Source of the DNA: a virus
Taxonomy: Duplodnaviria > Heunggongvirae > Uroviricota > Caudoviricetes
IMG/VR virus record: IMGVR_UViG_3300042154_003418
Location: 40,218-104,217 of that record
Direction: 5' to 3' (one strand)
DNA length: 64,000 nt
Shown here: positions 11,839 to 62,764 of the stretch, one piece after another
Numbering within the stretch: the first letter of the stretch is position 1
Layout: each line of letters begins with the position of its first letter
Notes under the pieces: model-generated
What the model saw: only the letters and a program-made list of their open reading frames with translations
Database searches by the model: none
What the model was told of the DNA's origin: nothing
Position numbers and translations under genes: made by a program

Positions 11839-12011
11839 TGAATGAACAATTAAAAACACAAGTACTGGAAGCCAAAGAAGCCTTTAATCAGGCAGTAGCA
11901 GCCGCAAGGGCCGCAGGTGTAGCAGTAAATTTATGGGTTACTGGTACAGGACCCACAGCAATTGAACCAAGCCAGGTCGATCTAGATTTTGGAATTTCTC
12001 AAGGATAATCT

Positions 12012-44376: not shown

Positions 44377-44401
44377 AGTGGTTTATTGCTTTGTAGACTA
44401 T

Positions 44402-44430
44402 ATTATAACTGATTGGGACGGCTTTGACAA
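44402..44430 (-). promoter_or_regulatory. T5-type early promoter in front of the ligase C-fragment
   Basis: On the - strand: cttgtcaaagccgtcccaatcagttataatatag. Confidence 0.5.
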
Positions 44431-44447
44431 GTGTAAATTTTTAGTGC

Positions 44448-45128
44448 TTAAGCTAATGTCCAGCCTTTGTGATGGTTTCTAGTACCTTTTAAAACTTCCG
44501 TGAGTTTTGGTTGTAGTAGTCCGTGTTCTTTGGCAAAATTTGTAACGTGAGTAACTTCATAGACTTTGCCTTCTGGTGATTTTATGGAAGGGTATTGCTT
44601 GCCGTAATAGTAAGGTAACTCTTGTTTTATTCGTATCAGCTCTGCATATTCGTTAGGACATACTTCTGATAGCCAGCAGTGGCTTTCTAAGGCAGCTATG
44701 TGCCTTATTGTATATATAGATATACCTGTTATTTCCTCTATTTCACGCTTACTTAATGTAGGAGCTTTCTGTATTAATAATCGTAATACTGAAATATACT
44801 GCTCATTAGTATACTTTGCAGTACCTGATCTTTCTCCAAACATAATGGGATTACCAGACTCACTAAGAGTATTAAATCCGTTATTTACGGAGTCAAATAT
44901 TTCTATAGCTTCTTTTTCAGTACTATTTAGAGCAGCTATGTTAGCTTCTACCAATAGCTCTAGATTAGGCATTCCGTAGGTATTAAATGCTTGCTGTAAT
45001 TTAGGTGCAGCTGCATTTCTATTAAAAGCACTTTTGTGCTTAATAAATCTATCCTCTATATCCAAGGACTGACCTATATAAACCTTATTTGTATAATTAA
45101 ATCTTAACACATAAATTCCAGTAGTCAT
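44448..45128 (-). CDS. GIY-YIG homing endonuclease
   Basis: N-terminus TGIYVLRFNYTNKVYIGQSLDIEDRFIKH carries the GIY...YIG motif with the conserved R and E. C-terminal DNA-binding region. AT-rich codon usage distinct from its neighbours. Confidence 0.8.
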   Translation of the reverse strand: MTTGIYVLRFNYTNKVYIGQSLDIEDRFIKHKSAFNRNAAAPKLQQAFNTYGMPNLELLVEANIAALNSTEKEAIEIFDSVNNGFNTLSESGNPIMFGERSGTAKYTNEQYISVLRLLIQKAPTLSKREIEEITGISIYTIRHIAALESHCWLSEVCPNEYAELIRIKQELPYYYGKQYPSIKSPEGKVYEVTHVTNFAKEHGLLQPKLTEVLKGTRNHHKGWTLA

Positions 45129-45187
45129 ATTTACCTCACTTGCTTATATTATAGCACATGAGGTATAATTTGTCCAACCAAAATTTT

Positions 45188-46138
45188 TTATGCATCAACT
45201 TTATGTAAAATACACGGAATAATCATGCCTGCGCGAATAACGGCCACGGTGTCGCCAATACGCAAGTCTAGCATTTGAATAAAACCAGGATTATTAAGAG
45301 TAGCACGACTGACGAGAGCATCGCCAATAAGCACAGGTTCAAGAATTGCCACTGGGCTAACTTTGCCACTCTTGCCGACTTGCCACTCAACTGCAACAAG
45401 TTTGGTTTCAACGTGGGCTGCTCGTTCTTTTTTAGCATACGCACCGCGCGGATGCTTGGCCGTATACCCCATCTCGTAGAACTGACTATTGTTATTGACT
45501 CGGAAGACAACACCATCGCACGGGAATATTTTGTCGAGATCTGGTTCATTGATTACTCCAAAACCTGCCAGTTGCAGTGCTGCCAAGTCTGCGTTAAATG
45601 TTTCGTGTAGGCTAGGCTGAACGCCATAGGCAAAGAAACTCAGTGCTCGTGATTGAAATTCCGACACATCTTTTAAGTTAAGTGCGCCTGCTGCATAGTT
45701 GCGAGCATTTTCAATATTGAGTGGAGCCACAATCTCGCCAGTGATCTGGTAAACGCCTGGCCACGGCACAGTTTGTGGCACAATAGGATTGCCCAAGAAC
45801 TTGTCAGTTACAATCTGACCTTCTACACCATCCCCACGGGTAAGAACTCGAACAAGATTACCGTCAACATAAAGTAAGCTAAGAGCTGCCCCATCAAGCT
45901 TAATGCTTGTAGCAACCGATCTAATACCTTGGAGTGGTTGGGTACCTTCATCTTCGTAATACTTTTGCAGTGAATACATTTGATACAAGTGACGCTCAGT
46001 TTTTGAGTTCTGCTTAGCGCCCACAGCATTATAGCCTACTGACGCAGCAAGCGCATCAAACTGTGCGTCAGTGATAAATGGGCTACCTGCGTAATACGCG
46101 GCTGAAGCTGAGTCGAGATATTGTGTGATTTTGTTCAT
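45188..46138 (-). CDS. NAD-dependent DNA ligase N-terminal fragment (adenylation + OB domains)
   Basis: AAYYAGSPFITDAQFDAL N-terminal motif. KLDG adenylation lysine motif. OB-fold segment VEWQVGKSGKVSPVAILEPVLIGDALVSRATLNN...IGDTV. Confidence 0.75.
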   Translation of the reverse strand: MNKITQYLDSASAAYYAGSPFITDAQFDALAASVGYNAVGAKQNSKTERHLYQMYSLQKYYEDEGTQPLQGIRSVATSIKLDGAALSLLYVDGNLVRVLTRGDGVEGQIVTDKFLGNPIVPQTVPWPGVYQITGEIVAPLNIENARNYAAGALNLKDVSEFQSRALSFFAYGVQPSLHETFNADLAALQLAGFGVINEPDLDKIFPCDGVVFRVNNNSQFYEMGYTAKHPRGAYAKKERAAHVETKLVAVEWQVGKSGKVSPVAILEPVLIGDALVSRATLNNPGFIQMLDLRIGDTVAVIRAGMIIPCILHKVDA

Positions 46139-52643: not shown

Positions 52644-52717
52644 TGGAGCGGCCAGGGGGAGTCGAACCCCACTCAGCGCAGCTTGGAAGGCTGGCGTCGC
52701 ACCTTGCGCTTGGCCGC
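52644..52717 (-). tRNA. tRNA-Gly (anticodon TCC)
   Basis: Acceptor gcggcca / tggccgc. Loop CTTCCAA. T-loop TTCGACT. Confidence 0.65.
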
Positions 52718-53362: not shown

Positions 53363-53530
53363 TACCAGTGCTTTATAACGCCTGCTATAATAAAGCAGTT
53401 AGTAGTCATGTAACTTAGTACAATTATGGTTCTGATAAATGCCACAGCGTCTGCTTCACAATCGTTTTTTCCGGCTTTGTGGCCGAGGGCATTTGCCCAA
53501 AGTGTCCATAATTTTTTTTGCCATACATAT

Positions 53531-53606
53531 ACCCACAAAGGACTCGAACCTCATATGCGGGCGGCCTACCCGTAGTTCCAAACTATCATAGCGACTGACT
53601 GTGGGC
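53531..53606 (-). ncRNA. tRNA-like element with a good acceptor and T-arm but a non-canonical D/anticodon region. It is flanked by an 11-bp perfect inverted repeat that extends the acceptor helix.
   Basis: Acceptor gcccaca / tgtgggt. T-loop TTCGAGT. Inverted repeat gccatacatat (53520-53530) / atatgtatggc (53607-53617). Confidence 0.35.
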
Positions 53607-53617
53607 ATATGTATGGC

Positions 53618-53704
53618 GGGTGGCAGAGGAGTCGAACCCCATCCCGGTTAAGAGAACCTGGTTTTCAAGGCCAGTCGCAGGACCAACCCCGCTGCATTAC
53701 CACC
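53618..53704 (-). tRNA. tRNA-Ser (anticodon TGA), type II with long variable arm
   Basis: Acceptor ggtggta / tgccacc. Loop CTTGAAA. Long variable arm. T-loop TTCGACT. Confidence 0.7.
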
Positions 53705-53783
53705 CAAACCCGCTTACGATTATGCGGAGTATGTATTGATGCCCTATAGTTACCAAGGTAACTTTGGCTCATACCGATTAAAA

Positions 53784-54377
53784 TTATTCTTTTGTTTCTG
53801 CGGCTTCTTGTGCACGAGCTGCCTGCAACTTTTCCAGTCGCTGCGCAACTTCGTCGCTAGTCATCCAAATGTCTTTGTTGTGCAACATGCTGGAAATTTC
53901 TTCACTGGTCAAGAAGTCTTTGTATACCGCACTCATAAAGTTTTCCGACCAACGACGTTCAAAGTGCAGTTGATCGTACATTTCACCGCCTTTGCCAAAT
54001 GTTCCAGCACTATAGTTGTGAAACATAAAAAGACTGTGCGGTGTGATCTCGTGTGCATGACCGTGTAAGAAGATCATGGTTGCTGCACTCATGCAAGCGC
54101 CTTCAACACTGGTAACAATAGTTGCTTCTGTGTCGGACATTACTCGCAAGAATTGTAGTGTGGTATACAGGTCACCACCAGGCGAGTTGATATAAATACG
54201 AACGGTATCTACTTCGGATGCATTGCGAATGCAATCAAACCACTCAATGTATTCTTCAGCATCTAGCACAGGGCCGCTTAGGTAAAACTCATGAAGCTGT
54301 GCAACTGGCTTTGAAAAGCTATTTGTGTACTTTTCAGGTTGAAACAATTTAGGGTCGAGATAATTGTCTTTGTTCAT
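53784..54377 (-). CDS. ClpP-family serine peptidase
   Basis: INSPGGDLYT, the GACMSAA Ser region and MFHNY His region align with the ClpP catalytic triad layout. Confidence 0.6.
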   Translation of the reverse strand: MNKDNYLDPKLFQPEKYTNSFSKPVAQLHEFYLSGPVLDAEEYIEWFDCIRNASEVDTVRIYINSPGGDLYTTLQFLRVMSDTEATIVTSVEGACMSAATMIFLHGHAHEITPHSLFMFHNYSAGTFGKGGEMYDQLHFERRWSENFMSAVYKDFLTSEEISSMLHNKDIWMTSDEVAQRLEKLQAARAQEAAETKE

Positions 54378-54387
54378 GCGTTCCTTT

Positions 54388-54471
54388 AATATAATTAAGC
54401 ACTCTAGCTAGCCGTGGAGCCCTTGCTGTTATGCGCGGTGGGGTTTTAACCCAAAAGTGCTTAATTATATT
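54388..54471. repeat. 15-bp perfect inverted repeat enclosing 54 nt, just upstream of the ClpP-like gene
   Basis: aatataattaagcac ... gtgcttaattatatt. Confidence 0.6.
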
Positions 54472-54852
54472 TGCCAGCTTATTCTGTTACGAGGGAAGCC
54501 GAGCGAGAAACCCTAAGCAGTTTTTAAGCTGCTAGTGCGTACGTTTGATCGTTTGCGTTTATTTTTGTTTTGTGTCTGCGGCCAGGTAGAGCGTCTTTTT
54601 GTGCTATATGCACAACGACTACACTTTGCCCCCAACCCTACGGCTTCTACATTGCCGAGTTGTCTACTTTGCTACTCTTAGCCCGGTCGATCCTGTGTCA
54701 GGCCCATCAAAAGCATACTACTAGCATATAAGCTAAAAGAGCCGATCCTTCCAACCGCTGTCGGCCACCCTTTGGGTAGGGTAATATACTTATGGTGGAC
54801 CTGGCGGGCACTGCCCCCGCGTGTCGAACTCTTTTGGGTCTGCTTCATACAA

Positions 54853-54940
54853 CCATATTTTAGCACACTAACGGACATGCGTCGTAACCACTTTCTAAGC
54901 CTGTGCACAGGCAGCGGGCTTCTAGTATGCTAAAATATGG
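54853..54940. repeat. 13-bp perfect inverted repeat enclosing 62 nt, abutting the 3' end of the 54938 tRNA
   Basis: ccatattttagca ... tgctaaaatatgg. Confidence 0.6.
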
Positions 54941-55013
54941 TGCCGGTTGCATGAATCGAACACGCGACCTTCTCGTTACAAGGGAGTTGCTCTACCAACT
55001 GAGCTAAACCGGC
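54938..55013 (-). tRNA. type-I tRNA with GTA anticodon and a weak anticodon stem (possible pseudo or atypical tRNA)
   Basis: Good acceptor gccggtt / aaccggc, D-arm and T-arm. Anticodon arm actcc-CTTGTAA-cgaga has only 3 Watson-Crick pairs. Confidence 0.5.
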
Positions 55014-55058
55014 ATTAATTGACTATTTATTCCGCCGCCCGTCAATTAAGGGAACTAC

Positions 55059-55135
55059 TGGAGTCGGTGACAGGATTCGAACCTGCATAATACGGATTTG
55101 CAATCCGTGGCCTAGCCGTTCAGCTACACACCGAC
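55059..55135 (-). tRNA. tRNA-Cys (anticodon GCA)
   Basis: Anticodon stem acgga/tccgt, loop TTGCAAA. T-loop TTCGAAT. CCA encoded. Confidence 0.85.
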
Positions 55136-55136
55136 A

Positions 55137-55340
55137 TTAAATTTGTTGAGTACTTATACAAGTCTCAAAACCGTTCCACAGTCGCTCAAACTTCATTTGA
55201 TACATTTGCTTGAGTCCGATCAAGTAATTCATACGTTGATCTTCGTCCATGTTGTCATACATATCTAGATACAACTGAATGTCGTCAGTTACATTCCAGC
55301 ATTGCATGATATTTTGTTCTAGGTCAAAGCGATCAGTCAT
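55137..55340 (-). CDS. hypothetical small protein
   Basis: 67-aa ORF. Confidence 0.35.
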   Translation of the reverse strand: MTDRFDLEQNIMQCWNVTDDIQLYLDMYDNMDEDQRMNYLIGLKQMYQMKFERLWNGFETCISTQQI

Positions 55341-55341
55341 T

Positions 55342-55869
55342 TTAAGCCAATATAAATTTTAAACGGTCAGCAGCATAGCTTGCTGCAAAAGCATTTGGTT
55401 TTACTTGAGCATCTACATTACAAGTGCCCTTGATATAACCAATAGCCTGCTGCACAACACAGCTAGAGCCGTACAGTAGGTTTGGATTAATATCCAGGTG
55501 AACTTCAACGTGACGATCTTGTAGTACATCACTTAGTTCATGAAATAGGTCTGAAACCTTGTAAACTTCTTGCATTAACCTGAGTGCAGGTTTAGATACA
55601 CGTTGATCAAAGTCGCGTTCACGACTAATGCTACCAAAAATTTTGCAACCGTGATTGCCGTCAATGTGTACTACAACTGCTAAGGTATAGTCAGCGTGCC
55701 ATACACCATTAACTTTAACACGTTCGCTATCCGCACCAAGATAAACCTTTGTTTCTGCGCTCTGTGCTTGAATGAAGTCTTTGACTTCTTGTAAGTTAAA
55801 TTCGTGCATAGTTGTGGTTGTGTAAAGTATATTATGGTAGGCCCTGAGAGAATCAAACTCCCACTTCAA
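55342..55869 (-). CDS. hypothetical protein
   Basis: 175-aa ORF. The likely start is the internal MHEFNL. Has two Cys/His clusters. Confidence 0.4.
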   Translation of the reverse strand: MKWEFDSLRAYHNILYTTTTMHEFNLQEVKDFIQAQSAETKVYLGADSERVKVNGVWHADYTLAVVVHIDGNHGCKIFGSISRERDFDQRVSKPALRLMQEVYKVSDLFHELSDVLQDRHVEVHLDINPNLLYGSSCVVQQAIGYIKGTCNVDAQVKPNAFAASYAADRLKFILA

Positions 55870-55891
55870 CGTTCGTAGCGTTGTGTAATAT

Positions 55892-56485
55892 TCATTTTAC
55901 TAAAGGCCTATTGTCTAGTTCTACGGCAATATCTAAAAATATCTTATCACTATTTATTCTGTGAATGTACGCATGGTGTGTAGGACATAAATATACTAAG
56001 TTAGATAGGTCATTATTATACCTATTCTCATCTATATGATGTACGTCTAGTATTAGGTTTTCTTCACATGAACAGCATTTAATTTTAAGATCGTTGTCTT
56101 TATAAAATCTATTTAAATACTCTACGTAGCTATAGCTTCCGTCTTTCCTGTTTTTTGCCCCTTGAGTATGAGCAAAAAACTTATTACCACAGTTATAAGA
56201 GCATGTAGTCGGCTCTTTACCAGAAGATAAAAACTCAAATTCATTGTTACACTGTGGGCAAACTTTACTAATTAATTTAGCAGGCTCTTTGCCGTTAGCT
56301 GTAAAGTGAGAAGTACTAATATTGTGTAAAAGACAATAGTCTTTTATCATCTTACCGTACCTGTAGTTTTTGGAATAACCTAATGCTTGTGCAACTATTA
56401 CGGCAGCGTGAGCGTTAGATATTAGTTCTAGTAGTTCTCCAGATTTATGGCTATCTTCTAAAACTTTTAAAAATGTTGTTGACAT
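55892..56485 (-). CDS. HNH homing endonuclease
   Basis: C-terminal NLVYLCPTHHAYIHR HNH motif and Cys-rich zinc-binding segments. Low-GC codon usage. Confidence 0.75.
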   Translation of the reverse strand: MSTTFLKVLEDSHKSGELLELISNAHAAVIVAQALGYSKNYRYGKMIKDYCLLHNISTSHFTANGKEPAKLISKVCPQCNNEFEFLSSGKEPTTCSYNCGNKFFAHTQGAKNRKDGSYSYVEYLNRFYKDNDLKIKCCSCEENLILDVHHIDENRYNNDLSNLVYLCPTHHAYIHRINSDKIFLDIAVELDNRPLVK

Positions 56486-56508
56486 AAACTTTCCTATGTA
56501 TAAGCTAT

Positions 56509-56537
56509 ATTATACAATAAAAGCATTTAAAAGTCAA
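56509..56537 (-). promoter_or_regulatory. T5-type early promoter (TTGACT-17-TATAATATA) for the HNH gene
   Basis: On the - strand: ttgact-N17-tataatatagc. Confidence 0.5.
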
Positions 56538-56563
56538 TCGAAAATTTTTTGAACTACCAAAAT

Positions 56564-56637
56564 TGGCAGAGGATAGAAGAATCGAACTTCTGACAACGGA
56601 ATCAAAATCCGTGGTTATACCATTTAACTAATCCCCA
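56564..56637 (-). tRNA. tRNA-Gln (anticodon TTG)
   Basis: Anticodon stem acgga/tccgt, loop TTTTGAT. D-arm gtta..taac. T-loop TTCGATT. Confidence 0.7.
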
Positions 56638-56644
56638 ACAAAAC

Positions 56645-56719
56645 TGGCTCCACAGGCAGGGATCGAACCTACGACCAATTGATTAACAGTCAACTGCACT
56701 ACCGCTGTGCTACTGTGGA
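56645..56719 (-). tRNA. tRNA-Asn (anticodon GTT)
   Basis: Acceptor tccacag / ctgtgga. Loop CTGTTAA. T-loop TTCGATC. Confidence 0.8.
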
Positions 56720-56723
56720 ATAC

Positions 56724-56817
56724 TTAATACTAGCGCCCGGTACGCCATCCCCGAGTGAGCTTCAGTGGCAGAGAAGGATGCCACTTACACACTATAGCGC
56801 ATTCTCGCTAGTATTAA
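56724..56817. repeat. 12-bp perfect inverted repeat enclosing 70 nt
   Basis: ttaatactagcg ... cgctagtattaa. Confidence 0.6.
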
Positions 56818-56991
56818 ATATGCTGCTTACGATATACAGCGTGACATTGTCGTAGTCACCGATTGGATTACGGACGCTCTAACCGGAACGGCACGGACCT
56901 AAGGCAGGTTTTGGCGGTCTAGAGGGGTAACGATCCCCTTCTACAGCAGTGACAGTGCTGTGTGCGTCCATGAACACTTCTAAACCATATT

Positions 56992-57076
56992 TGGTACCCC
57001 CACCCGGACTCGAACCGGGAAGCCGAAGCGAGGCATTTTAAGTGCCTTGTGTTTACCAGGATTTCACCATAGGGGC
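56992..57076 (-). tRNA. tRNA-Leu (anticodon TAA), type II
   Basis: Anticodon stem aggca/tgcct, loop CTTAAAA. Long variable arm. T-arm cccgg-TTCGAGT-ccggg. Confidence 0.75.
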
Positions 57077-57081
57077 ATATT

Positions 57082-57167
57082 TGGTGGAGAAGGAGGGGAT
57101 CGAACCCACTTGCCTCTTGAGGCCACGGATTTACAATCCGCTGTCCTACCATTAGAACATCTTCTCC
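57082..57167 (-). tRNA. tRNA-Tyr (anticodon GTA), type II
   Basis: Acceptor ggagaag / cttctcc. Loop TTGTAAA. Long variable arm. T-loop TTCGATC. Confidence 0.8.
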
Positions 57168-57218
57168 GTTTAAAGAATAATTATACCGCAAATAGCAAAT
57201 CACGGCAAATCTAAATTT

Positions 57219-57293
57219 TGGCACCCCTCCAGGGACTCGAACCCTGACCAACGGTTTTGGAGACCGCGATGCTGCCAATTACACCAAAGAGAT
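57219..57293 (-). tRNA. tRNA-Trp (anticodon CCA)
   Basis: Anticodon stem gcggt/accgt, loop CTCCAAA. T-arm caggg-TTCGAGT-ccctg. The acceptor is G-U-rich, which is unusual. Confidence 0.6.
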
Positions 57294-57299
57294 AAAATG

Positions 57300-57660
57300 C
57301 TTGGAATTATGCGTTACAGAGTTTTGTCGGGCTTTCACACCCGGTGCCATACCACTTGGCGAATTTCCCAATGGGAGATAAAAGAATCGAACTTTTGATG
57401 AAACTGTAACTATCGCCAAAGCAATAATAATAAAAAACCTTAGAACAACTATTGCAGCGATTTGGTTAGATTAGAAGTCTAGAAGTAACTGCAAAAAACA
57501 CTAAAGGCTTAGAATAAGACTAGAAAAAGCAACGCGGGTATTTGTTTTTCAAACCATATTGAGAAGTAACCGCATCTAGCACTAAGTCCTATTCTAAGCC
57601 TTCGCTTAGAGCCCCACCTTTCTTACACCTGACTGGCTACAGGCTTGGGTCGTGGGTTAG
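57300..57660 (-). ncRNA. non-coding region 3' of the rsr-like gene: a T-arm/acceptor remnant (57366-57390), a 5' half-tRNA-like segment (57300-57365), and a long imperfect hairpin (57504-57602). This is the 3'-side candidate Y-RNA-like transcript.
   Basis: aaaagttcgattcttttatctccca (T-arm + 3' acceptor) is followed by gggaaattcgccaagtggtatggcacc. The aaggcttagaataagactag ... ctagcactaagtcctattctaagcctt helix is about 20 bp. No ORF longer than 60 aa. Confidence 0.35.
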
Positions 57661-57665
57661 TATTA

Positions 57666-59042
57666 TTAAAGCACTTCTGCTTCGAGGGCTTGAATGTAAT
57701 CAATCACAGCTTCGGAGAAACCAGTAATGGTTTCCCACTCAGCACTGTTGATGCCATTCTGATAAGAACCAACGTTCAGGATGTAGTTTTTGTCACGGGA
57801 CAAACGCTTGGCTTTGTGAGGTTCGAAACCTCGGCCACCTGTGTCTTGTTCATCTGTAAACACGATTACTCGGTCTACAAAATTATCATGTTCTTGGCTG
57901 GCGATATAGTCCATAGCTTGCACTAAGAAGATACCGCCACCGCCGATTTTTCGGCCGACCTCTGCACTGCGGATGTAGTCGCTGAGTGCAAAACCACGTC
58001 GATTTGGAATCAACATAGTTGCATGTTTGCGAGTACCATCATTACCGGCTGTTGCGTAGATAACTACTTCTTCGCAGATTTCTCGTGCCAAGATAGCCAG
58101 TGAACAAGCAGCATCAAGACGAGAAATCTCGCTTTTAGCGCTTATTGTTTGCCCCATAGAGCCGCTAGTGTCAACCACCAAAACTGTACGTCCTGGTAGT
58201 TTAGCTTGTGTTGACAAGCTTGCTAGCATCATGCGCTCAAGCATACCCTCAAATTGAGGGACTTGACGGGCCGCAGAAATGTACCGGAAAGGCAACACTT
58301 TTGAAGCGTCAATGGTTTTTGAGTAAGCCTCAATCTCGGACTGAGAAATACCTGCTTGAGTCATGTTACGCAAGTTACGTAAGAATGCTAGTGCACCCAA
58401 TTTGTTTTCACGCATAAGACGTGAGAATGTTTCACGCTTATCAGCGCCCGCACTTAGTTGAGTTTCCCAGGTATCTGGAGTTTCCAACTTGTCTTCAGCA
58501 ATTCGTTTGAATAGCTCGGCTTGCACAGCCGTTTGCGGTTTAGGGTGGCTCAGGAACATAACATCACGCAAGCGAATCGCTGCTGAGTTTTTGTCCCACT
58601 TGGCCAGCTGATACTCGCTGAACTTGTTAAAACAAGCAGCAAGACCACGTTTAACCTGATTGCTCAGGGCTGACTTGCCGTCTTTCCAGTAAATGCTCAG
58701 GAATTCAGACATTTCGTCTGGACGCTGAATAACACTGGTAAGGGCATTTGCTTGTAGTTTACCGTGACGTGCGAGTTCACGAACAAGCAGCAGAGGAACG
58801 TGACGAAGTTTGAACTTAGTACGAGCCTCTAGTGCTAGTGCGGCAACCCGATCAGGGTTCACACTAGCTACCACGCTTTTAATCAGTTCAGCATGGCTTT
58901 TTCCATCAACATAAAACTGGTCTTCCCACAGCATTGCTGCCAGGGTCAAGCGACGCAGTTGTCGTTCTGGATTAATAGTGCGTACTGGAGTACCAACACT
59001 GTTAACAGTCATTGAAGCGGATTTGCGATTAATCGCGGACAT
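57666..59042 (-). CDS. rsr: Ro60/Rsr-like protein (TROVE-like N-terminal region + C-terminal von Willebrand A domain)
   Basis: C-terminal vWA MIDAS motif VLVVDTSGSMG with downstream T and D residues. N-terminal LRRLTLAAMLWEDQFYVDGKS parallels the Ro60 RFLCFGSEGGTYY region. About 460 aa. Embedded among tRNA and tRNA-like genes. Confidence 0.6.
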   Translation of the reverse strand: MSAINRKSASMTVNSVGTPVRTINPERQLRRLTLAAMLWEDQFYVDGKSHAELIKSVVASVNPDRVAALALEARTKFKLRHVPLLLVRELARHGKLQANALTSVIQRPDEMSEFLSIYWKDGKSALSNQVKRGLAACFNKFSEYQLAKWDKNSAAIRLRDVMFLSHPKPQTAVQAELFKRIAEDKLETPDTWETQLSAGADKRETFSRLMRENKLGALAFLRNLRNMTQAGISQSEIEAYSKTIDASKVLPFRYISAARQVPQFEGMLERMMLASLSTQAKLPGRTVLVVDTSGSMGQTISAKSEISRLDAACSLAILAREICEEVVIYATAGNDGTRKHATMLIPNRRGFALSDYIRSAEVGRKIGGGGIFLVQAMDYIASQEHDNFVDRVIVFTDEQDTGGRGFEPHKAKRLSRDKNYILNVGSYQNGINSAEWETITGFSEAVIDYIQALEAEVL

Positions 59043-59073
59043 GGATTTTTCCTTGTAAATAAGTAAGAACTAG

Positions 59074-59120
59074 GCGAAACAGAGATTTTAGCGCTCTACC
59101 AACTGAGCTACTCGACACAC
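59074..59120 (-). ncRNA. tRNA 5'-half fragment (acceptor + intact D-arm) lacking anticodon and T arms
   Basis: The - strand reads gtgtgtcgag-ta-gctcagttggtagagcg, then diverges. Confidence 0.4.
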
Positions 59121-59125
59121 TAAAG

Positions 59126-59213
59126 TGCCAGAGGATGGACTCGAACCACCGACCTCTCGTTTAACAGACGAAGTAACTGTTTCTTTCACTATACCTAAAT
59201 TAAACACACTGGC
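59126..59213 (-). ncRNA. 88-nt tRNA-like RNA: acceptor + T-arm + GTT anticodon-like arm, with a 14-nt expansion in the D region. This is the 5'-side candidate Y-RNA-like (YrlA-type) element.
   Basis: Acceptor gccagtg / ctctggc (1 mismatch). T-arm ggtgg-TTCGAGT-ccatc. Arm ttcgt-CTGTTAA-acgag. Its 5' part is duplicated at 59330-59375. Confidence 0.4.
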
Positions 59214-59429
59214 TAAGAATCTGCGAAAGCAGTTCTTGGAATTGTTTAGCGTCTACATCGCCTAAGACGTTTGCACGGTTTAAAGTGTGTGGCTACCACA
59301 ATTTGTGTGCCACAAGGGCAGACAGCTTTAGTTATGAAGTAACTGACTTCTATCACTATAGCCAAAGTGTTTAATTTAAGTATAAATTATATCAAATATA
59401 ACTTACACTGGCAAGTTTGTATTTTTAGT

Positions 59430-59503
59430 GGTGGACATAGCAGGATTCGAACCGGCGACCTAGGCCGTATGAAGACCGTGCACTACCACTGTGCTATATG
59501 TCC
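59430..59503 (-). tRNA. tRNA-Met/Ile2 (anticodon CAT), second CAT tRNA
   Basis: Acceptor ggacata / tatgtcc. D-arm gcac..gtgc. Loop TTCATAC. T-loop TTCGAAT. CCA encoded. Confidence 0.7.
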
Positions 59504-59889
59504 AGGTGCCGGTTACATTCTCCGGCGGCACATTTCGTTGTGTCTGAAGACATTGACGCTGTTTAAAGTCCACGAGGGGGCATAGTCTGTAGCCATTAGG
59601 TAAACAGATACCTTTACTTGTGTGTTATTTTTGTGTCAGGAAACATCAAACCCCGTGAGAGCAGCCCATCTTGTTTTCGCTTCAGCGGACGCAGGGTGGT
59701 CAATATACTTACCACTGATTACAAGCCTGCAAATGACAATGTAGCGTGGTGCTTATATCCACACATAGACGGGATACACCGGCGAGTTTCCTCAGATAAG
59801 CAATCGTATCTATTGTCAAAAATATGGTGGCGAGCCAATGCCAGGTTTACCAGCTCACTATGCGGCTGCAGAAGTGCTGGAGGGCTAAT

Positions 59890-59960
59890 TTGGTTGCGGG
59901 GGAAGGACTCGAACCTTCTAAGCGGAGCTTATGAGACTTGCTTCTACCCTGACTCCCCGC
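59890..59960 (-). ncRNA. 71-nt degenerate tRNA-like gene: good acceptor, T-arm, CCA and a CUCAUAA loop, but no proper anticodon stem and a shortened D-arm
   Basis: T-arm gaagg-TTCGAGT-ccttc. Acceptor cgcgggg / cccgcaa. The loop ctcataa is flanked by non-pairing caagt/gctcc. Confidence 0.4.
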
Positions 59961-60111
59961 GATATTTTAGTAGTAGCCGTGGAATTCGTTTTTGTAACGA
60001 AACCAGGTACGCTCTAGCTCTTTTAACTGTGACCAAGTTTGTGGATTGTTGTCGGTGACAAAATCTTCAAAGCTATAAGGTTGCAGAGCTTTTTGTAGCT
60101 GAGCCAGTAAA

Positions 60112-60387
60112 TCACTTAGCATTCACAAACTCATAGAATTGCTTTGATTTGGCCAGTACTTCTCCAAAGTCAAAAGGCTTGGGCATAAACTTGGCAATCA
60201 TTTCGGAAGTGTTTTGACCTTTGCTGGCCAGACTTTCTTGCATTTCGGTAATGAACTCCATGTTGGAGGCGTACTCAGCTTGCATTAGCTCTGCGGTCAT
60301 TTTCAAGATTTCAAGACGAATCTCAAAAGGTGATTTATTACTCATTGTAGTTCCTGTGTTGTGATGTGTAAGGTGTAGGCTTTTCAC
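60112..60387 (-). CDS. hypothetical protein
   Basis: 91-aa ORF. Confidence 0.35.
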   Translation of the reverse strand: MKSLHLTHHNTGTTMSNKSPFEIRLEILKMTAELMQAEYASNMEFITEMQESLASKGQNTSEMIAKFMPKPFDFGEVLAKSKQFYEFVNAK

Positions 60388-60438
60388 CTACTTGGAGCGT
60401 TATTTCAGCTCATGTTTGGTACTGAGGGAGGAAGTGTT

Positions 60439-60512
60439 TGGTACCCAGTAGAGGTATCGATCCTCTGATTAACGCTTATCAAGCGTTTGTTATACCATTT
60501 AACTAACCGGGC
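60439..60512 (-). tRNA. tRNA-Ile (anticodon GAT)
   Basis: Anticodon stem aacgc/gcgtt, loop TTGATAA. D-arm gtta..aaca. CCA encoded. Confidence 0.8.
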
Positions 60513-60517
60513 GTATT

Positions 60518-60592
60518 TGGTACTCCGAACGGGTTTCGATCCCGCTTCTCCAACTTGAAAGGCTGGCGTCCTAGCCACTAGACGACCGGAGT
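60518..60592 (-). tRNA. tRNA-Glu (anticodon TTC)
   Basis: Acceptor actccgg / ccggagt. Loop CTTTCAA. T-arm cggg-ATCGAAA-cccg. Confidence 0.8.
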
Positions 60593-60773
60593 GTTTGCGT
60601 AAAGATTAATTATACAGAGATTAGGCTGCGTGTTCAAGACAATATTTATAAGTTTAACCCTAACCACGGGCGAGTATGAGTCGAGACGTGGGCCTATAGC
60701 AACTACTAGGTGGATTAGTCCGTTCGTAAAGGATTGGTAATCACTCCAACTTAGGGTCAAACTTATAAATACT

Positions 60774-60849
60774 TGGTGCAACCTACAGGAATCGAACCTG
60801 TTTCCATCGCTCTTCAGGCGACCGCTATGACCACATCAGCTAAAGTTGC
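60774..60849 (-). tRNA. tRNA-Phe (anticodon GAA)
   Basis: Acceptor gcaactt / aggttgc. Anticodon stem gtcgc/gcgat, loop CTGAAGA. T-loop TTCGATT. CCA encoded. Confidence 0.75.
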
Positions 60850-61068
60850 TTAAAATACTGGATTTTGTGCTTGCCATGTTTCTGCTTCATGACCATCACA
60901 GTCAATACGCCAAGGGCAAGTACTGAGAATTTGTGTTGAGCAATCGTCGTTACCCCAGCATACTGGAGGTTGAGTACCACGCAAGACTTTAATCTGCTTG
61001 TGCACTAAGTCACGACGATTTGCTAGATTGGCTTCTTTGTCTAGCAATACTTGAATTTCAGTCATATA
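60850..61068 (-). CDS. small Cys-rich protein (trimmed to avoid the tRNA overlap)
   Basis: The ORF track gives 60850..61236, which runs through tRNA-His and tRNA-Ser. The internal Met product MTEIQVLLDKEANLANRRDLVHKQIKVLRGTQPPVCWGNDDCSTQILSTCPWRIDCDGHEAETWQAQNPVF is more plausible. Confidence 0.35.
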   Translation of the reverse strand, partial: YMTEIQVLLDKEANLANRRDLVHKQIKVLRGTQPPVCWGNDDCSTQILSTCPWRIDCDGHEAETWQAQNPVF

Positions 61069-61074
61069 AACCTT

Positions 61075-61150
61075 TGGGCAGTCGTTACGGATTCGATCCG
61101 TTCCTACGAGTTTCACAGACTCGGGTGCTTCCACTACACTAAACGCTGCA
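61075..61150 (-). tRNA. tRNA-His (anticodon GTG), acceptor with a one-nucleotide bulge
   Basis: Anticodon stem cgagt/actcg, loop CTGTGAA. T region acggATCGAATccgt. 3' strand acgActgc pairs with gcagcgt. Confidence 0.65.
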
Positions 61151-61154
61151 TATT

Positions 61155-61241
61155 TGGCGGGAGATACAGGAATCGAACCTGTCAGCCTATTTCTAAACGA
61201 AGGCTTAGCAAGCCTCTGTTGCACCTTGCAACACATCTCCC
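61155..61241 (-). tRNA. tRNA-Ser (anticodon GCT), type II
   Basis: Acceptor gggagat / atctccc. Loop TTGCTAA. Long variable arm. T-loop TTCGATT. CCA encoded. Confidence 0.8.
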
Positions 61242-61355
61242 AGTACCATATTTGAGCATACTAACATCCACTTTTCGAACTTGTACTTTGTTCGCGAATA
61301 CGTGTAGTCTTGCAAAACCAGTGGTTGAACGCCAACTGTTAATATGCTCAAATAT

Positions 61356-61427
61356 GGTAGGACTGAAGGGTAACGATCCCTTTTCTACTGGTTAAAAGCC
61401 AGTTGCTTCACCTTAAAGCTTCAATCC
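61356..61427 (-). tRNA. tRNA-Lys (anticodon TTT), compact (about 68 nt before the 3' tail)
   Basis: Acceptor ggattga / tcagtcc. D-arm gctt-taaggtg-aagc. Anticodon stem actgg/ccagt, loop CTTTTAA. T-arm aaggg-ATCGTTA-ccctt. Confidence 0.65.
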
Positions 61428-61569
61428 CATTAACCGCCCCAACCTTCTCGGTTAAGTTTTCCGCGCAATTGCTTGTGCGATTTTTTATGAGAACCAGCAC
61501 CGTTGCGCTTTAACAACGCTAAATGCACATGGTTCCGAGGTTTTCGTGTTTTCATTATATTCCTAAAAT

Positions 61570-61647
61570 TGGTGGAGAATATCGGATTCGAACCGATCTG
61601 TGTCCTGCTTGCAAAGCAGGTGTCCACCCCAAGCAGACCCATTCCCC
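61570..61647 (-). tRNA. tRNA-Ala (anticodon TGC)
   Basis: Anticodon stem cctgc/gcagg, loop TTTGCAA. T-arm atcgg-TTCGAAT-ccgat. CCA encoded. Confidence 0.85.
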
Positions 61648-61653
61648 AAATTG

Positions 61654-61738
61654 TGGTGCGTCGAGAGAGACTCGAACTCTCAATCCTTTCGGCACTGGCT
61701 TCTAAGACCAGCGTGTATACCATTTCCACCACCAACGC
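61654..61738 (-). tRNA. tRNA-Leu (anticodon TAG), type II
   Basis: Acceptor gcgttgg / tcgacgc. Loop CTTAGAA. Long variable arm. T-arm gagag-TTCGAGT-ctctc. Confidence 0.75.
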
Positions 61739-61739
61739 A

Positions 61740-61934
61740 TTATACTTTAATGTCTACGTTTACGCCTTTAGTACTATCAACTGGTCTGTAGTAGACCGTT
61801 TGCTGTACAAACTGAGCACCATTGTTATCAACTTTGGTTGCGTAGACTATCTCACGTATTTTATCAAAATACGGAGTAAATGTTCTTGAAACGCTTTTTG
61901 TTTCCATATTGTTGTACCTACTGTTTGCTACCAC
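61740..61934 (-). CDS. hypothetical small protein
   Basis: 64-aa ORF between tRNAs. Confidence 0.3.
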   Translation of the reverse strand: MVANSRYNNMETKSVSRTFTPYFDKIREIVYATKVDNNGAQFVQQTVYYRPVDSTKGVNVDIKV

Positions 61935-62088
61935 ACCCGCTAAGGCATCGGCTTAGTTTTGCAAAGATTAATTACTTCTCGCTATATACTAGGCTCAAGG
62001 TATAGACAGTACTTATCTAGAAAGTAAAGTCACTTCTGCTTGTAAGGCTCCGAAACTAAATCAGAGACGCGCAATAGATACAACAATA

Positions 62089-62162
62089 TGGTCTCGATGG
62101 TAAGAATCGAACTTACGCTTCATGGTCCCAAACCACGGGTGATGCCATTTCACTACACCGAG
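62089..62162 (-). tRNA. tRNA-Pro (anticodon TGG)
   Basis: Anticodon stem cgtgg/ccatg, loop TTTGGGA with G37. T-arm gtaag-TTCGATT-cttac. CCA encoded. Confidence 0.8.
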
Positions 62163-62265
62163 ATAACCTTTTTGATAACTCAGAGCTGGTAATCTGAGAC
62201 ACTTTTTAGAACTGTGTGAAATCTACTGGAATACGCAAAACTGTCCAGTGCAACAAAGAATAATA

Positions 62266-62294
62266 ATTATACTTGAAAAAGCATTTAACCACAA
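62266..62294 (-). promoter_or_regulatory. T5-type early promoter (TTGTGG-17-TATAATTAT) driving the tRNA-Pro unit
   Basis: On the - strand: acttgtggttaaatgctttttcaagtataattat. Confidence 0.45.
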
Positions 62295-62378
62295 GTGTAA
62301 ATTTTTAAAGCCATAAGTTAACACACTAAACTAGTTAGGCTGCAATAGGAGCCATTGTTCATAGAGTGTGTTAAATTA

Positions 62379-62552
62379 TGGTGGATCGGGCAGGACTCGA
62401 ACCTGCGTCTCTATAATTCTATAACCCGTGGCCATGTATTCGAACTCAGGCTGAACTGTAGCTGATTACGCCGTTGCAGGGCCAGGGTCAACTATCTACG
62501 TTCAAAGGGTTATAGTCCGGATTTGCGCTTTCGCCACCTAAGCTACCGATCC
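62379..62552 (-). ncRNA. split/interrupted tRNA-like gene. Acceptor + D-arm at the 5' end and T-arm + acceptor + CCA at the 3' end are separated by about 120 nt instead of an anticodon arm.
   Basis: 5' ggatcgg-ta-gctt-aggtggcga-aagc. 3' gcagg-TTCGAGT-cctgc-ccgatcc-a-cca. The internal 9-bp helix ctataaccc / gggttatag encloses about 80 nt, which includes a second TTCGAAT box. Confidence 0.4.
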
Positions 62553-62636
62553 ATATAAAAGCACATTTAAACAGTCCTTCAACGCTAGTCGCTATCTCCC
62601 TTACTAGAGGGCGGAACAGTATGTGCTTTTATATGG
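62551..62636. repeat. 16-bp perfect inverted repeat enclosing 54 nt, immediately 5' (on the - strand) of the split tRNA-like gene
   Basis: ccatataaaagcacat ... atgtgcttttatatgg. Confidence 0.65.
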
Positions 62637-62643
62637 ATTCTAA

Positions 62644-62764
62644 CCATATATTAGCATAATCAATATTACCATGTTGACGCATGGCTTTTCGCAGTTCGTC
62701 AAAACCACCGAATAACGCACCGCGCCTTGCGATGCCATTACCCGTCAATTACGCTAATATATGG
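62644..62764. repeat. 12-bp perfect inverted repeat enclosing 97 nt, followed by a small hairpin (62765-62781)
   Basis: ccatatattagc ... gctaatatatgg, then tctccc-ttgc-gggagc. Confidence 0.6.

What the first reader, a model, noticed from the sequence alone, without database searches (positions are those of the whole stretch)
53520..62764. Family of long perfect inverted repeats (CCATAT-NNN-AGCA core) bracketing 54-97 nt segments across the tRNA island
Six loci carry 11-16 bp perfect inverted repeats with 54-97 nt loops: 53520-53617, 54388-54471, 54853-54940, 56724-56817, 62551-62636 and 62644-62764. Four share the arm core CCATAT(w3)AGCA (gccatacatat; ccatattttagca; ccatataaaagcacat; ccatatattagc). 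One of them encloses a tRNA-like element exactly (53531-53606). Two directly abut tRNA ends. These are not Rho-independent terminators, since the loops are too long and there is no T-run. They could be RNase III-type processing helices for the polycistronic tRNA precursor, small structured ncRNAs, or target/insertion scars of the local homing endonucleases.
Basis: seen in the sequence. Interest (0 to 1): 0.6.

Follow-up and report, generated by a model that had tools for sequence, protein, structure and literature searches.

The report
Helix-clamped small RNAs in phage tRNA island
The inverted repeats are real: twelve roughly 19-base-pair RNA helices in the tRNA gene cluster of an uncultured T5-like phage each enclose a small folded RNA, much like the "stable RNAs of unknown function" long annotated in phage T5, and related phages swap the enclosed RNAs like cassettes.

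Summary
The window holds 12 long-armed inverted repeats, not 6, all within 53.5-62.8 kb, against about 0.05 expected by chance.

They are RNA helices on the tRNA (minus) strand. Non-Watson-Crick positions in the arms are G.U on that strand 76 times versus 19 on the other, and compensatory changes are frequent. "CCATAT" is the encoded 3' CCA of the upstream tRNA plus the AU-rich spacer; the partner "ATATGG" lies just 5' of the next gene.

Across 19 related loci there are 146 such helices (mode 19 bp) with 77 unrelated cores. Slots and outer arms are conserved. Cores are conserved within families but replaced between phages or moved between slots, never inverted.

Two cores next to a phage Ro60/Rsr gene (59190-59384, 57504-57602) are Y-RNA-like.

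The closest known relatives are T5 RNAIII, RNAIV and RNA2H. They have the same architecture, and their annotated ends lie inside the helix with a 1-2 nt 3' overhang.

Best reading: RNase III-type processing helices that release small stable RNAs from polycistronic tRNA transcripts. The functions of most cores are unknown. No expression data were available.

The parts
53520..53617 (-). Clamp helix (17/18 bp) around a 62-nt core with a T-arm-like hairpin. The 5' arm starts at the discriminator and CCA of a class II tRNA-like gene (53618-53705).
   Evidence: no homologue in the 38 related loci
54388..54471 (-). Clamp helix (16/16 bp) with a 52-nt core, lying between the 3' end of the two-piece tmRNA and the ribosome-binding site of the ClpP-like ORF.
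   Evidence: in relative L008 the same slot holds a different core
54852..54941 (-). Clamp helix (18/19 bp) with a 52-nt core. The 5' arm overlaps the ACCA of the tRNA at 54938-55013, and the 3' arm ends at the start of the tmRNA acceptor piece.
   Evidence: homologous core in L004, L042 and L044, but five other unrelated cores occupy this slot in relatives
56720..56821 (-). Clamp helix (15/16 bp) with a 70-nt core. The 3' arm ends 0 nt before tRNA-Asn.
   Evidence: 7 of 36 pairs are compensatory in 4 sequences
57504..57602 (-). Clamp helix (17/18 bp) around a Y-RNA-like core (UAGUG...GUUACUUC), 63 nt downstream of rsr.
   Evidence: 20 of 29 pairs compensatory, 95.9% paired against 76% in shuffles (0/500)
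59190..59384 (-). Clamp helix (17/18 bp, up to 23/26) around a 159-nt Y-RNA-like core whose centre varies between relatives. The first nucleotide lies about 7 nt after the -10 element of a near-consensus promoter (59414-59386).
60643..60771 (-). Clamp helix (20/21 bp) with an 87-nt core that folds as a four-way junction, 2 nt after tRNA-Phe. A promoter follows.
61244..61359 (-). Clamp helix (22/23 bp) with a 70-nt core. The 5' arm overlaps the UACCA of tRNA-Lys, and the 3' arm ends 2 nt before tRNA-Ser.
   Evidence: at least 8 unrelated cores occupy this slot in relatives
61904..62091 (-). Clamp helix (16/17 bp) with a 154-nt core. The 5' arm overlaps the CCA of tRNA-Pro, and the 3' arm contains the AUG of a small ORF (61907-61740).
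62311..62381 (-). Clamp helix (16/17 bp) with a 37-nt core. The 5' arm overlaps the CCA of the tRNA-like gene 62383-62551.
   Evidence: the same core sits in the post-tRNA-Lys slot of L001
62549..62638 (-). Clamp helix (18/18 bp) with a 54-nt core. The 3' arm overlaps the first 4 nt of the tRNA-like gene 62383-62551.
   Evidence: compensatory G-C to A-U change in L003
62643..62765 (-). Clamp helix (17/18 bp, extending to about 22) with an 87-nt cloverleaf-like core. It is the first RNA after the promoter at 62833-62805.
59064..59183 (-). YrlA-like Y RNA (permuted tRNA-like module: T arm, closed acceptor, D arm) immediately 5' of rsr. It has no clamp of its own, and its 5' end overlaps the 3' arm of the 59190-59384 clamp.
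57437..57505 (-). Fourth copy of the Y-like motif (UAGUG-N-GCAGUUACUUC...CUGCA), without a clamp, directly after the 57504-57602 hairpin.
   Evidence: read from the sequence
57666..59042 (-). Ro60/Rsr-like protein (TROVE plus vWA domains). This is context for the two Y-like cores.

Best explanation
The inverted repeats are terminal 'clamp' helices of small non-coding RNA genes embedded in the polycistronic tRNA transcripts of a T5-like phage.

In the transcript of the minus strand, each clamp pairs the encoded 3' CCA of the upstream tRNA plus an AU-only stretch (CCA-UAUUUUA) and a G/C-containing inner stretch (GCACACU) with the complementary sequence that ends just 5' of the next tRNA, RNA or ORF. 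This gives a helix of about 19 bp around a 30-200 nt folded core.

Inferred step: host RNase III cuts inside the helix, about 8-11 bp from its base, as the annotated ends of T5 RNAIII, RNA2H and RNAIV suggest. This frees the core with a stem of about 10 bp and a 3' overhang. The AU-only outer halves then melt. The short trailer on the upstream tRNA is trimmed back to CCA by 3' exonucleases, and the short leader on the downstream tRNA is removed by RNase P. The clamp is thus both punctuation for the precursor and an end-protecting stem that makes the released RNA stable.

The cores are independent functional RNAs of several kinds. Two are Y-RNA paralogues, presumably bound by the phage Ro60/Rsr. 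One is tRNA-like. In relatives some clamps enclose real tRNAs. Most have unknown function.

Because tRNAs and clamp arms are conserved while cores differ, recombination between co-infecting relatives exchanges cores like cassettes. The island's homing endonucleases may stimulate this.
For: Non-randomness: 12 helices in 9.3 kb against 0.05 expected, and none elsewhere in the window.

RNA on the sense strand: 76 G.U-type versus 19 A.C-type non-Watson-Crick positions in the arms of 132 distinct hairpins. Compensatory changes occur in arms and cores. For the post-rsr family, 20 of 29 pairs are compensatory, 0 of 500 shuffles reach the observed values, and slid controls pair at 51% or less.

Length constraint: uninterrupted helix length peaks at 19 bp (37 of 132), with most between 16 and 23 bp. 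Pairing is at least 94% to position 16 after the CCA, about 85% at positions 17-18, then collapses.

Two-part arm: positions 4-10 are almost only A/U, while positions 11-16 are about 40% G/C.

Placement: the arms start at encoded CCA ends and stop 0-8 nt before the next gene. Plain tRNA-tRNA junctions read CCA-AAUAU-G, the same leader that ends the 3' arm.

Cores are functional units. Within a family they are 80-97% identical with covariation, in phages whose Rsr proteins are only 62-64% identical. They are 45% GC, against 29% for arms and 42% for the background. Orientation is never inverted: 0 versus 402 matches.

Cassette behaviour: 146 helices fall into 77 core clusters. The same slot holds unrelated cores, and the same core appears in different slots.

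Precedent: the T5 record annotates 'stable RNA with unknown functions' inside its tRNA cluster. RNAIII, RNAIV and RNA2H fold with 17-22 bp terminal helices and multibranch cores. Their annotated ends lie 8-11 bp inside the precursor helix with a 2, 1 and 2 nt 3' overhang.

The window is T5-like in gene content.

Y-like cores: the motif GUG-N9-10-GUUACUUC occurs four times on the minus strand, only beside rsr, and is invariant in relatives.
Against: There are no transcript data for this phage, so neither accumulation of the small RNAs nor any cleavage site is shown.

The RNase III step rests on helix geometry and on T5 coordinates whose experimental provenance I could not check. The 3' end of RNAIII also coincides with the RNase P site of tRNA-His.

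No sequence similarity to the T5 RNAs was found.

The host, and hence its RNase repertoire, is unknown.

RNase III alone does not explain why the arm sequence, and not only its pairing, is conserved across slots and even in an unrelated 239-kb phage contig.

Some cores are short (29-40 nt) and may carry no function.

Related Rsr-plus-tRNA islands in other phage lineages lack the clamps (L018, L020, L027, L038), so the clamps are not required for tRNA island expression.
Confidence: 0.6

Rival explanations
1. Structural punctuation only. The helices insulate or stabilise the polycistronic transcript, acting as folding insulators, exonuclease blocks or RNase III sites, and the enclosed sequences are neutral filler with no function of their own.
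For: Several cores are short with little predicted structure, for example 62311-62381 (37 nt) and L015 15746-15818 (29 nt). Cores are replaceable between relatives. No core matches any Rfam family.
Against: Core families are conserved with compensatory changes in internal hairpins. Cores are more GC-rich than the genome. The same core is kept when it sits in different slots with different arms. Two cores carry the Y-RNA motif next to rsr. T5 analogues accumulate as stable RNAs according to the record.
Confidence: 0.15
2. Selfish miniature DNA elements with terminal inverted repeats, comparable to Correia or ERIC elements. These would insert next to tRNA CCA ends and merely be co-transcribed.
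For: Arms share a consensus across slots. The same core occurs in different slots. The same arm sequence occurs in an unrelated 239-kb phage contig. Homing endonuclease genes lie in the island.
Against: There are 77 unrelated cores among 146 elements, rather than families of near-identical copies. No target-site duplication is seen at the junctions. Orientation is always the same relative to transcription: 0 inverted pairs against 402. Mismatches are tolerated as G.U on the sense strand only. No transposase is present in the island ORFs.
Confidence: 0.1
3. All of the hairpins are Y RNAs: ligands of the phage Ro60/Rsr that use the long stem as the Ro-binding stem and the cores as effector modules.
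For: rsr lies in the middle of the island. Y RNAs are defined by a long stem formed by the 5' and 3' ends (PMC4201824). Two cores plus two unclamped RNAs carry a shared Y-like motif.
Against: The GUUACUUC motif is absent from the other ten cores. T5 has clamp RNAs but no rsr in the region examined. The 239-kb contig with clamps was not retrieved by the Rsr search. Rsr-plus-tRNA islands in L018, L020, L027 and L038 have no clamps. The YrlA-like RNA itself has no clamp.
Confidence: 0.05
4. DNA-level features: cruciforms, attC-like recombination sites or homing-endonuclease scars, or promoter or terminator elements.
For: The arms are AT-rich and contain TGnTAAAAT-like strings. The island is mosaic between relatives.
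Against: The G.U asymmetry points to a single-stranded sense-strand fold. Near-consensus promoters lie elsewhere. The loops are 30-200 nt and no U-run follows the helix. No integrase is present.
Confidence: 0.04

Closest known systems
Phage T5 small stable RNAs RNAIII, RNAIV and RNA2H (with RNAI and RNA1-3), annotated in NC_005859 as 'stable RNA with unknown functions'
   Same: They lie inside the tRNA gene cluster on the tRNA strand and measure 100-170 nt. They have a 17-22 bp terminal helix around a multibranch core. They directly follow a CCA end or precede a tRNA 5' end. Their phage has the same T5-like gene order.
   Different: There is no sequence similarity. T5 has three, against 10-12 per genome here. 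The arm consensus differs: T5 arms do not carry CCAUAUUUUAGCA. Here some cores are Y-RNA-like and the cores are exchanged between relatives. T5 has no rsr in the region examined.
RNase III processing helices (16S/23S rRNA flanking stems; T7 early-transcript sites)
   Same: Sequences on either side of a functional RNA pair into a helix of about two turns within a polycistronic transcript. A cut would give staggered ends, and the T5 analogues show a 1-2 nt 3' overhang.
   Different: Cleavage is not demonstrated here. T7 sites are short hairpins with internal loops and no cargo. Here the helix also includes the CCA end of a tRNA.
Bacterial and phage Y RNAs (YrlA/YrlB; Rfam RF02553; Chen et al. 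2014, PMC4201824)
   Same: They are encoded next to a Ro60/Rsr gene and have a long stem formed by the 5' and 3' ends. They carry a 5'-strand motif resembling GNCGAAN0-1G (here UAGUGAAAG / GGUGAUAG). One copy has the permuted tRNA-like module.
   Different: This applies to only 2 of the 12 clamps. Those two carry an extra outer helix not described for Y RNAs. The Rfam score is below the gathering threshold (27 versus 69 bits).
Correia / ERIC-type miniature inverted-repeat elements that are co-transcribed and cut by RNase III (from my own knowledge)
   Same: They have terminal inverted repeats forming long RNA hairpins in transcripts, and copies occur at several sites.
   Different: Here the cores are highly diverse, the orientation is fixed, there is no target duplication, and the elements are confined to tRNA islands.

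Membership tests
T5-type stable small RNAs of the tRNA region | Encoded within the phage tRNA gene cluster on the tRNA strand, in a T5-like genome | tested here: met
   All 12 lie between tRNA genes on the minus strand. Replication and repair gene content is T5-like.
T5-type stable small RNAs of the tRNA region | 70-190 nt RNA whose ends pair in a long terminal helix around a branched core | tested here: met
   Folds, compared with T5 RNAIII, RNAIV and RNA2H
T5-type stable small RNAs of the tRNA region | Accumulates as a discrete stable RNA in infected cells | not testable with these tools
   No expression data are available for this uncultured phage
T5-type stable small RNAs of the tRNA region | Sequence homology to the T5 RNAs | tested here: not met
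   blastn of all cores against the T5 20-60 kb region gave one 17-nt chance match
RNase III substrate | Largely uninterrupted dsRNA of about two helical turns | tested here: met
   Helix length mode is 19 bp, with most between 16 and 23 bp. Pairing is at least 94% through 16 positions after the CCA.
RNase III substrate | Cleavage on both strands leaving a 2-nt 3' overhang | not testable with these tools
   Only indirect evidence: the annotated ends of T5 RNAIII and RNA2H give a 2-nt overhang and RNAIV a 1-nt overhang, each 8-11 bp inside the helix
Y RNA (YrlA, RF02553) | Reaches the Rfam gathering score | tested here: not met
   59073-59183 scores 27.2 bits against a threshold of 69. No clamp core is reported.
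Y RNA (YrlA, RF02553) | Encoded next to a Ro60/Rsr gene, with a conserved 5'-strand motif in a stem formed by the RNA ends | tested here: met
   Met for 59190-59384 and 57504-57602 (and for the unclamped 59064-59183 and 57437-57505). Not met for the other ten clamps.
Y RNA (YrlA, RF02553) | Bound by Rsr | not testable with these tools
   Requires a pull-down
Intrinsic (Rho-independent) terminator | Short GC-rich hairpin with a 3-8 nt loop followed by a U-run | tested here: not met
   Loops are 37-159 nt, arms are 29% GC, and no U-run follows
tRNA (for the core of 53520-53617) | Recognised by tRNA models | tested here: not met
   Not reported by ARAGORN or by the Rfam tRNA model at E<=10. Only a T-arm-like hairpin is present.
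Miniature inverted-repeat transposable element | Many near-identical copies, target-site duplication, both orientations | tested here: not met
   77 core clusters among 146 elements. No duplication at the junctions. 0 inverted core matches against 402 direct.

The most novel reading that the evidence does not exclude
The clamp helix is a universal docking and processing module. It lets T5-like and other tRNA-island phages carry, express and horizontally exchange a hypervariable repertoire of small structured RNAs, an RNA counterpart of protein anti-defence islands. Under this reading the cores act as decoys, sponges or guides against host RNA-targeting defences, or as specificity modules for the phage Ro60/Rsr. 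This would also explain the 40-year-old 'stable RNAs of unknown function' of T5.
Probability: 0.2. Interest if true: 0.85.

Novelty: new variant of a known kind. Interest (0 to 1): 0.55.

Why it matters
T5 has been annotated for decades with small stable RNAs of unknown function in its tRNA cluster. This window shows that they belong to a wider, recognisable class. The class has a length-constrained clamp helix tied to tRNA CCA ends and cores that are conserved as RNAs yet swapped between phages. At least two members can be linked to a protein partner, the phage Ro60/Rsr.

That gives concrete handles for experiments: defined precursors for RNase III assays, motif-bearing versus motif-free cores for Rsr pull-downs, and natural cassette variants to test against defence systems. 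The T5 tRNA region is already known to be an anti-defence island (bioRxiv 10.1101/2023.03.15.532788; PMC11555353).

It also matters for annotation. These loci are currently invisible to tRNA and Rfam scans.

Tried and rejected
- **Rfam.** At E<=1 on the island, E<=10 on sub-regions, and gathering thresholds on 15 related loci, only tRNA, permuted tmRNA, a weak YrlA hit and one group I intron appeared. No family matched any core.
- **Near relatives among cultured phages.** There are none. megablast gave tRNA-sized hits only. The best Rsr tblastn match was 52% identical.
- **Arms as promoter elements (TGnTAAAAT).** Rejected. Near-consensus promoters lie elsewhere, and promoter-like sites are not enriched (31 versus 24.9 expected).
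- **Terminators.** Rejected.
- **tRNA identity of the 53520-53617 core.** Rejected.
- **Homology to T5 RNAs.** None found.
- **Inverted copies of cores.** None found.
- **A clade-specific processing enzyme.** The PF04308 RNase H-like ORF is common in the clade but was not detected in L015, L017 or L034, which carry clamps, within the ±10 kb examined. This is uninformative.
- **Literature on processing of T5 stable RNAs.** Nothing was retrievable in the open library.
- **A possible fifth Y-like, tRNA-like RNA at 57296-57400.** It was seen by eye and not recognised by any model. I left it as a note.
- **A shared 'UAGUG' element in other cores and 3' arms.** It is too short to evaluate and I did not pursue it.

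Full report

Yes, and it is larger than reported. All six inverted repeats exist at the stated places. Using one definition (at least 14 Watson-Crick pairs, loop 25-200 nt), the 64-kb window contains 12 such repeats, all between 53520 and 62765. Random sequences of the same first-order composition give 0.47 per window and 0.05 per 10 kb of island. The six extra members are 57504-57602, 59190-59384, 60643-60771, 61244-61359, 61904-62091 and 62311-62381.

**2. Context**

Every tRNA (22-25, depending on the caller) and every credible ORF of 50-64 kb lies on the minus strand. The rest of the window encodes a family A DNA polymerase, a primase, a DnaB-type helicase, SbcCD-like proteins, a flap endonuclease and an NAD ligase interrupted by a GIY-YIG gene. 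This is the T5 type of genome. No cultured phage is close.

The island also holds a Ro60/Rsr-like protein with TROVE and vWA domains (57666-59042), a ClpP-like protease, an HNH endonuclease and a PF04308 RNase H-like protein. It holds a two-piece tmRNA as well (Rfam 91 bits; tag ANDQTYALAA). Near-consensus sigma-70 promoters divide the island into several short transcription units.

**3. What 'CCATAT...AGCA' is**

Read on the transcribed strand, the 5' arm begins with, or just after, the encoded 3' CCA of the upstream tRNA...ACCA-UAUUUUAGCA... The 3' arm ends ...UGCUAAAAUAUGG(U), 0-8 nt before the next tRNA, RNA or ORF.

Where two tRNAs are directly adjacent, the spacer is CCA-AAUAU-G. This is the same AU leader that ends the 3' arm. 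So the clamp looks like an elaboration of the ordinary spacer.

Over 64 distinct arms the consensus is CCAUAUUUUAGCACACU. Positions 4-10 are almost exclusively A/U, and positions 11-16 are about 40% G/C. Pairing is at least 94% through position 16, about 85% at positions 17-18, and near random from position 19.

**4. RNA or DNA, and which strand?**

I retrieved 38 loci from IMG/VR with the Rsr protein. The clade that shares the island's ORFs with the window (L001-L017 and L034) has the same kind of helices: 146 in 19 loci.

In 132 distinct hairpins, the non-Watson-Crick positions inside the arms are G.U on the tRNA strand 76 times. They are A.C, which would be G.U on the other strand, only 19 times. 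The uninterrupted helix, with G.U allowed, peaks sharply at 19 bp (37 of 132), and most fall between 16 and 23 bp.

Compensatory changes are frequent in both arms and cores:

| Family | Compensatory pairs |
|---|---|
| One pre-tmRNA family | 8 of 37 |
| The 56720 family | 7 of 36 |
| The post-rsr family | 20 of 29 |

For the post-rsr family, 95.9% of cells are paired against 76% in shuffles. None of 500 shuffles reaches the observed values, and slid controls pair at 51% or less.

These are therefore helices of the sense-strand RNA, under selection for pairing and for length.

**5. The cores**

The enclosed sequences average 45% GC, against 29% for the arms and 42% for the background. They fold into two- to four-way junctions.

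They fall into 77 sequence clusters. Within a cluster they are well conserved, at 80-97% identity, in phages whose Rsr proteins are only 62-64% identical. They also show covariation in internal hairpins.

Between phages, the same slot carries unrelated cores. Examples are the slot after tRNA-Lys, the slot before the tmRNA and the slot after the tRNA-like gene at 62383-62551. The post-Lys slot has at least eight unrelated cores and the pre-tmRNA slot at least six.

Conversely, the same core occurs in different slots with different flanks and different, still complementary, arms.

No core is ever found inverted: 0 reverse-strand matches against 402 direct ones.

Island ORFs are mosaic between relatives. 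The RNase H-like protein, for example, is 92-96% identical in loci whose Rsr is 63% identical. So recombination is rife. Together these facts describe conserved docking helices with exchangeable, orientation-dependent RNA cargo.

**6. Two cores are Y-RNA-like**

Immediately 5' of rsr lies a YrlA-type RNA (59064-59183). It has a permuted tRNA-like module consisting of a T arm, a closed acceptor stem and a D arm. Rfam scores it at 27 bits, below the gathering threshold of 69. However, it is conserved at this position in 15 loci from several phage lineages, with covariation in the T arm and the closed acceptor stem.

Its 5' motif, UAGUGAAAGAAACAGUUACUUC, resembles the GNCGAAN0-1G Rsr-binding motif of Chen et al. 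2014 (PMC4201824). The pattern GUG-N9-10-GUUACUUC occurs four times on the minus strand of the window, all next to rsr:

- in the YrlA-like RNA
- inside the 59190-59384 clamp
- inside the 57504-57602 clamp
- in an unclamped RNA at about 57437-57505

GUUACUUC is invariant in the relatives of the post-rsr clamp family and nearly so in those of the 59190-59384 family. The other ten cores lack the motif.

The clamps are also independent of Rsr:

- T5 has clamp RNAs and no rsr in the region examined.
- Rsr-plus-tRNA islands of other lineages have no clamps (L018, L020, L027, L038).
- A 239-kb contig shares no island ORF with the window and was not retrieved by the Rsr search. It carries at least seven clamps with the same arm consensus in its own tRNA island.

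**7. The closest known thing**

The T5 reference record annotates RNAIII, RNAI, RNA1, RNA2H, RNAIV, RNA2 and RNA3 inside its tRNA cluster as 'stable RNA with unknown functions' or 'tRNA-like stable RNA'.

RNAIII, RNAIV and RNA2H fold exactly like the present elements, with a 17-22 bp terminal helix and a branched core. RNAIII starts 4 nt after the CCA end of RNAI and ends at the 5' end of tRNA-His.

Placed in genomic context, their annotated ends lie 8-11 bp inside a longer precursor helix. The ends are staggered, with a 2-nt (RNAIII, RNA2H) or 1-nt (RNAIV) 3' overhang. This is the geometry that RNase III leaves.

I could not verify how those ends were determined. From memory, they derive from RNA sequencing by the Ksenzenko and Bayev groups in the 1980s. 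No open paper on this was retrievable. There is no sequence similarity between the T5 RNAs and any core here.

**8. Mechanism: shown versus inferred**

Shown:
- sense-strand RNA helices of constrained length
- anchoring at CCA ends and tRNA leaders
- conserved, covarying, orientation-fixed cores
- cassette-like replacement
- the Y-like identity of two cores
- architectural identity with the T5 stable RNAs

Inferred:
- RNase III cuts the helix near its middle.
- The AU-only outer halves dissociate. They are removed by 3' exonucleases back to the CCA on the upstream tRNA, and by RNase P on the downstream tRNA.
- The G/C-containing inner half remains as the closing stem that stabilises the released RNA.

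The split of the arm into an AU-only outer part and a mixed inner part fits this model. So does the fact that two clamps sit just ahead of ORFs. The 3' arm of 61904-62091 contains the start codon of a small ORF. 54388-54471 ends about 10 nt before the ClpP-like ORF. T7-type RNase III sites likewise separate stable RNAs from mRNAs.

Core exchange is most simply explained by homologous recombination in the conserved tRNAs and arms during co-infection. The island's homing endonucleases may stimulate it, as shown for T4 SegB in its tRNA region (PMC2330249).

**9. Rivals**

- **Pure punctuation with neutral filler.** Core conservation and covariation weaken this.
- **MITE-like selfish elements.** Core diversity, fixed orientation, the lack of target duplication and the G.U asymmetry argue against this.
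- **All are Y RNAs.** The motif distribution and the independence of clamps from rsr contradict this.
- **DNA-level sites, promoters or terminators.** The strand asymmetry, the separate promoters and the absence of U-runs exclude these.

The conservation of the arm sequence across slots and lineages is not explained by RNase III alone. It leaves room for a sequence-specific factor or for horizontal spread of the module.

**10. Verdict**

This is a real, highly non-random and conserved feature. It is not categorically new, because T5 has had such RNAs on its map for decades and RNase III punctuation and phage Y RNAs are known. New here are:

- the defined clamp (CCA-anchored, about 19 bp, two-part)
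- its abundance (10-12 per genome)
- the cassette-like turnover of the cores
- the wrapping of Y-RNA paralogues in the same clamp

The functions of most cores remain unknown. An anti-defence role is a reasonable speculation, given that the T5 tRNA region is an anti-defence island (10.1101/2023.03.15.532788).

Noticed in passing
window 57666-59042 (-), with 59064-59183, 57437-57505 and the cores of 59190-59384 and 57504-57602: A T5-like phage encodes a Ro60/Rsr (TROVE plus vWA) protein flanked by four Y-RNA-like genes that share the motif UAGUG-N-GUUACUUC. One of them is a YrlA type with a permuted tRNA-like module, and it scores below the Rfam threshold.
   Followed up: partly
window 54524-54854 (-), tag ORF 54556-54524; ORF 53784-54377 (-): A phage-encoded two-piece (permuted) tmRNA with tag ANDQTYALAA is followed, after one clamp, by a ClpP-like protease gene. 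The pair is conserved in relatives; the L041 tag is ANESVYALAA.
   Followed up: partly
window 62383-62551 (-): A tRNA-like gene with canonical acceptor, D and T arms carries an insertion of about 76-100 nt in or near the anticodon arm. It is conserved in relatives. ARAGORN calls it (as Ser-cga with a 76-nt intron) only with its intron option and relaxed thresholds.
   Followed up: partly
window 53618-53705, 61079-61147, 52644-52717 (-): Three likely tRNA genes were missed by the default ARAGORN run. They are a class II tRNA with a UGA anticodon loop (Rfam tRNA-Sec model, 33 bits), an Rfam tRNA hit of 37 bits, and Gly(tcc) found at a relaxed threshold.
   Followed up: partly
window 57296-57400 (-): This stretch has a T-arm-like hairpin (AAAAGUUCGAUUCUUUU), a D-arm-like hairpin and a GGCGAUAGUUACAG 5' motif enclosed by GUUACAG/CUGUAAC. 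It may be a fifth Y-like or tRNA-like RNA. No model recognises it.
   Followed up: partly
window minus-strand promoters at 63076-63048, 62833-62805, 59414-59386, 56537-56509, 60637-60609, 57208-57180: Near-consensus TTGACx-17-TATAAT promoters split the island into short units. The one at 59414-59386 places the transcription start at the first nucleotide of the 59190-59384 clamp.
   Followed up: partly
L043 (IMGVR_UViG_3300032214_000715, 239 kb) 9872-12291: An unrelated large phage contig shares no island ORF with the window and shows only tRNA-level similarity. It carries at least seven clamps with the same CCATATTTGAGCACA-type arms in its own tRNA island.
   Followed up: partly
L017 15344-15458; L015 7462-7565: In two relatives a clamp encloses a bona fide tRNA (His at 57 bits; Asn), giving a tRNA with an acceptor stem extended by more than 15 bp.
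   Followed up: no
window 43609-46138 (-): The NAD-dependent DNA ligase appears split. The adenylation and OB domains are at 45188-46138 and a BRCT-containing ORF is at 43609-44376, with a GIY-YIG/NUMOD endonuclease gene (44448-45128) between them.
   Followed up: no
L039 (T5 NC_005859) 30284-30389, 31808-31979, 32838-32940: The annotated ends of T5 RNAIII, RNA2H and RNAIV lie 8-11 bp inside a longer precursor helix, with a 2, 2 and 1 nt 3' overhang. This is an RNase III-like signature that the record does not mention.
   Followed up: yes
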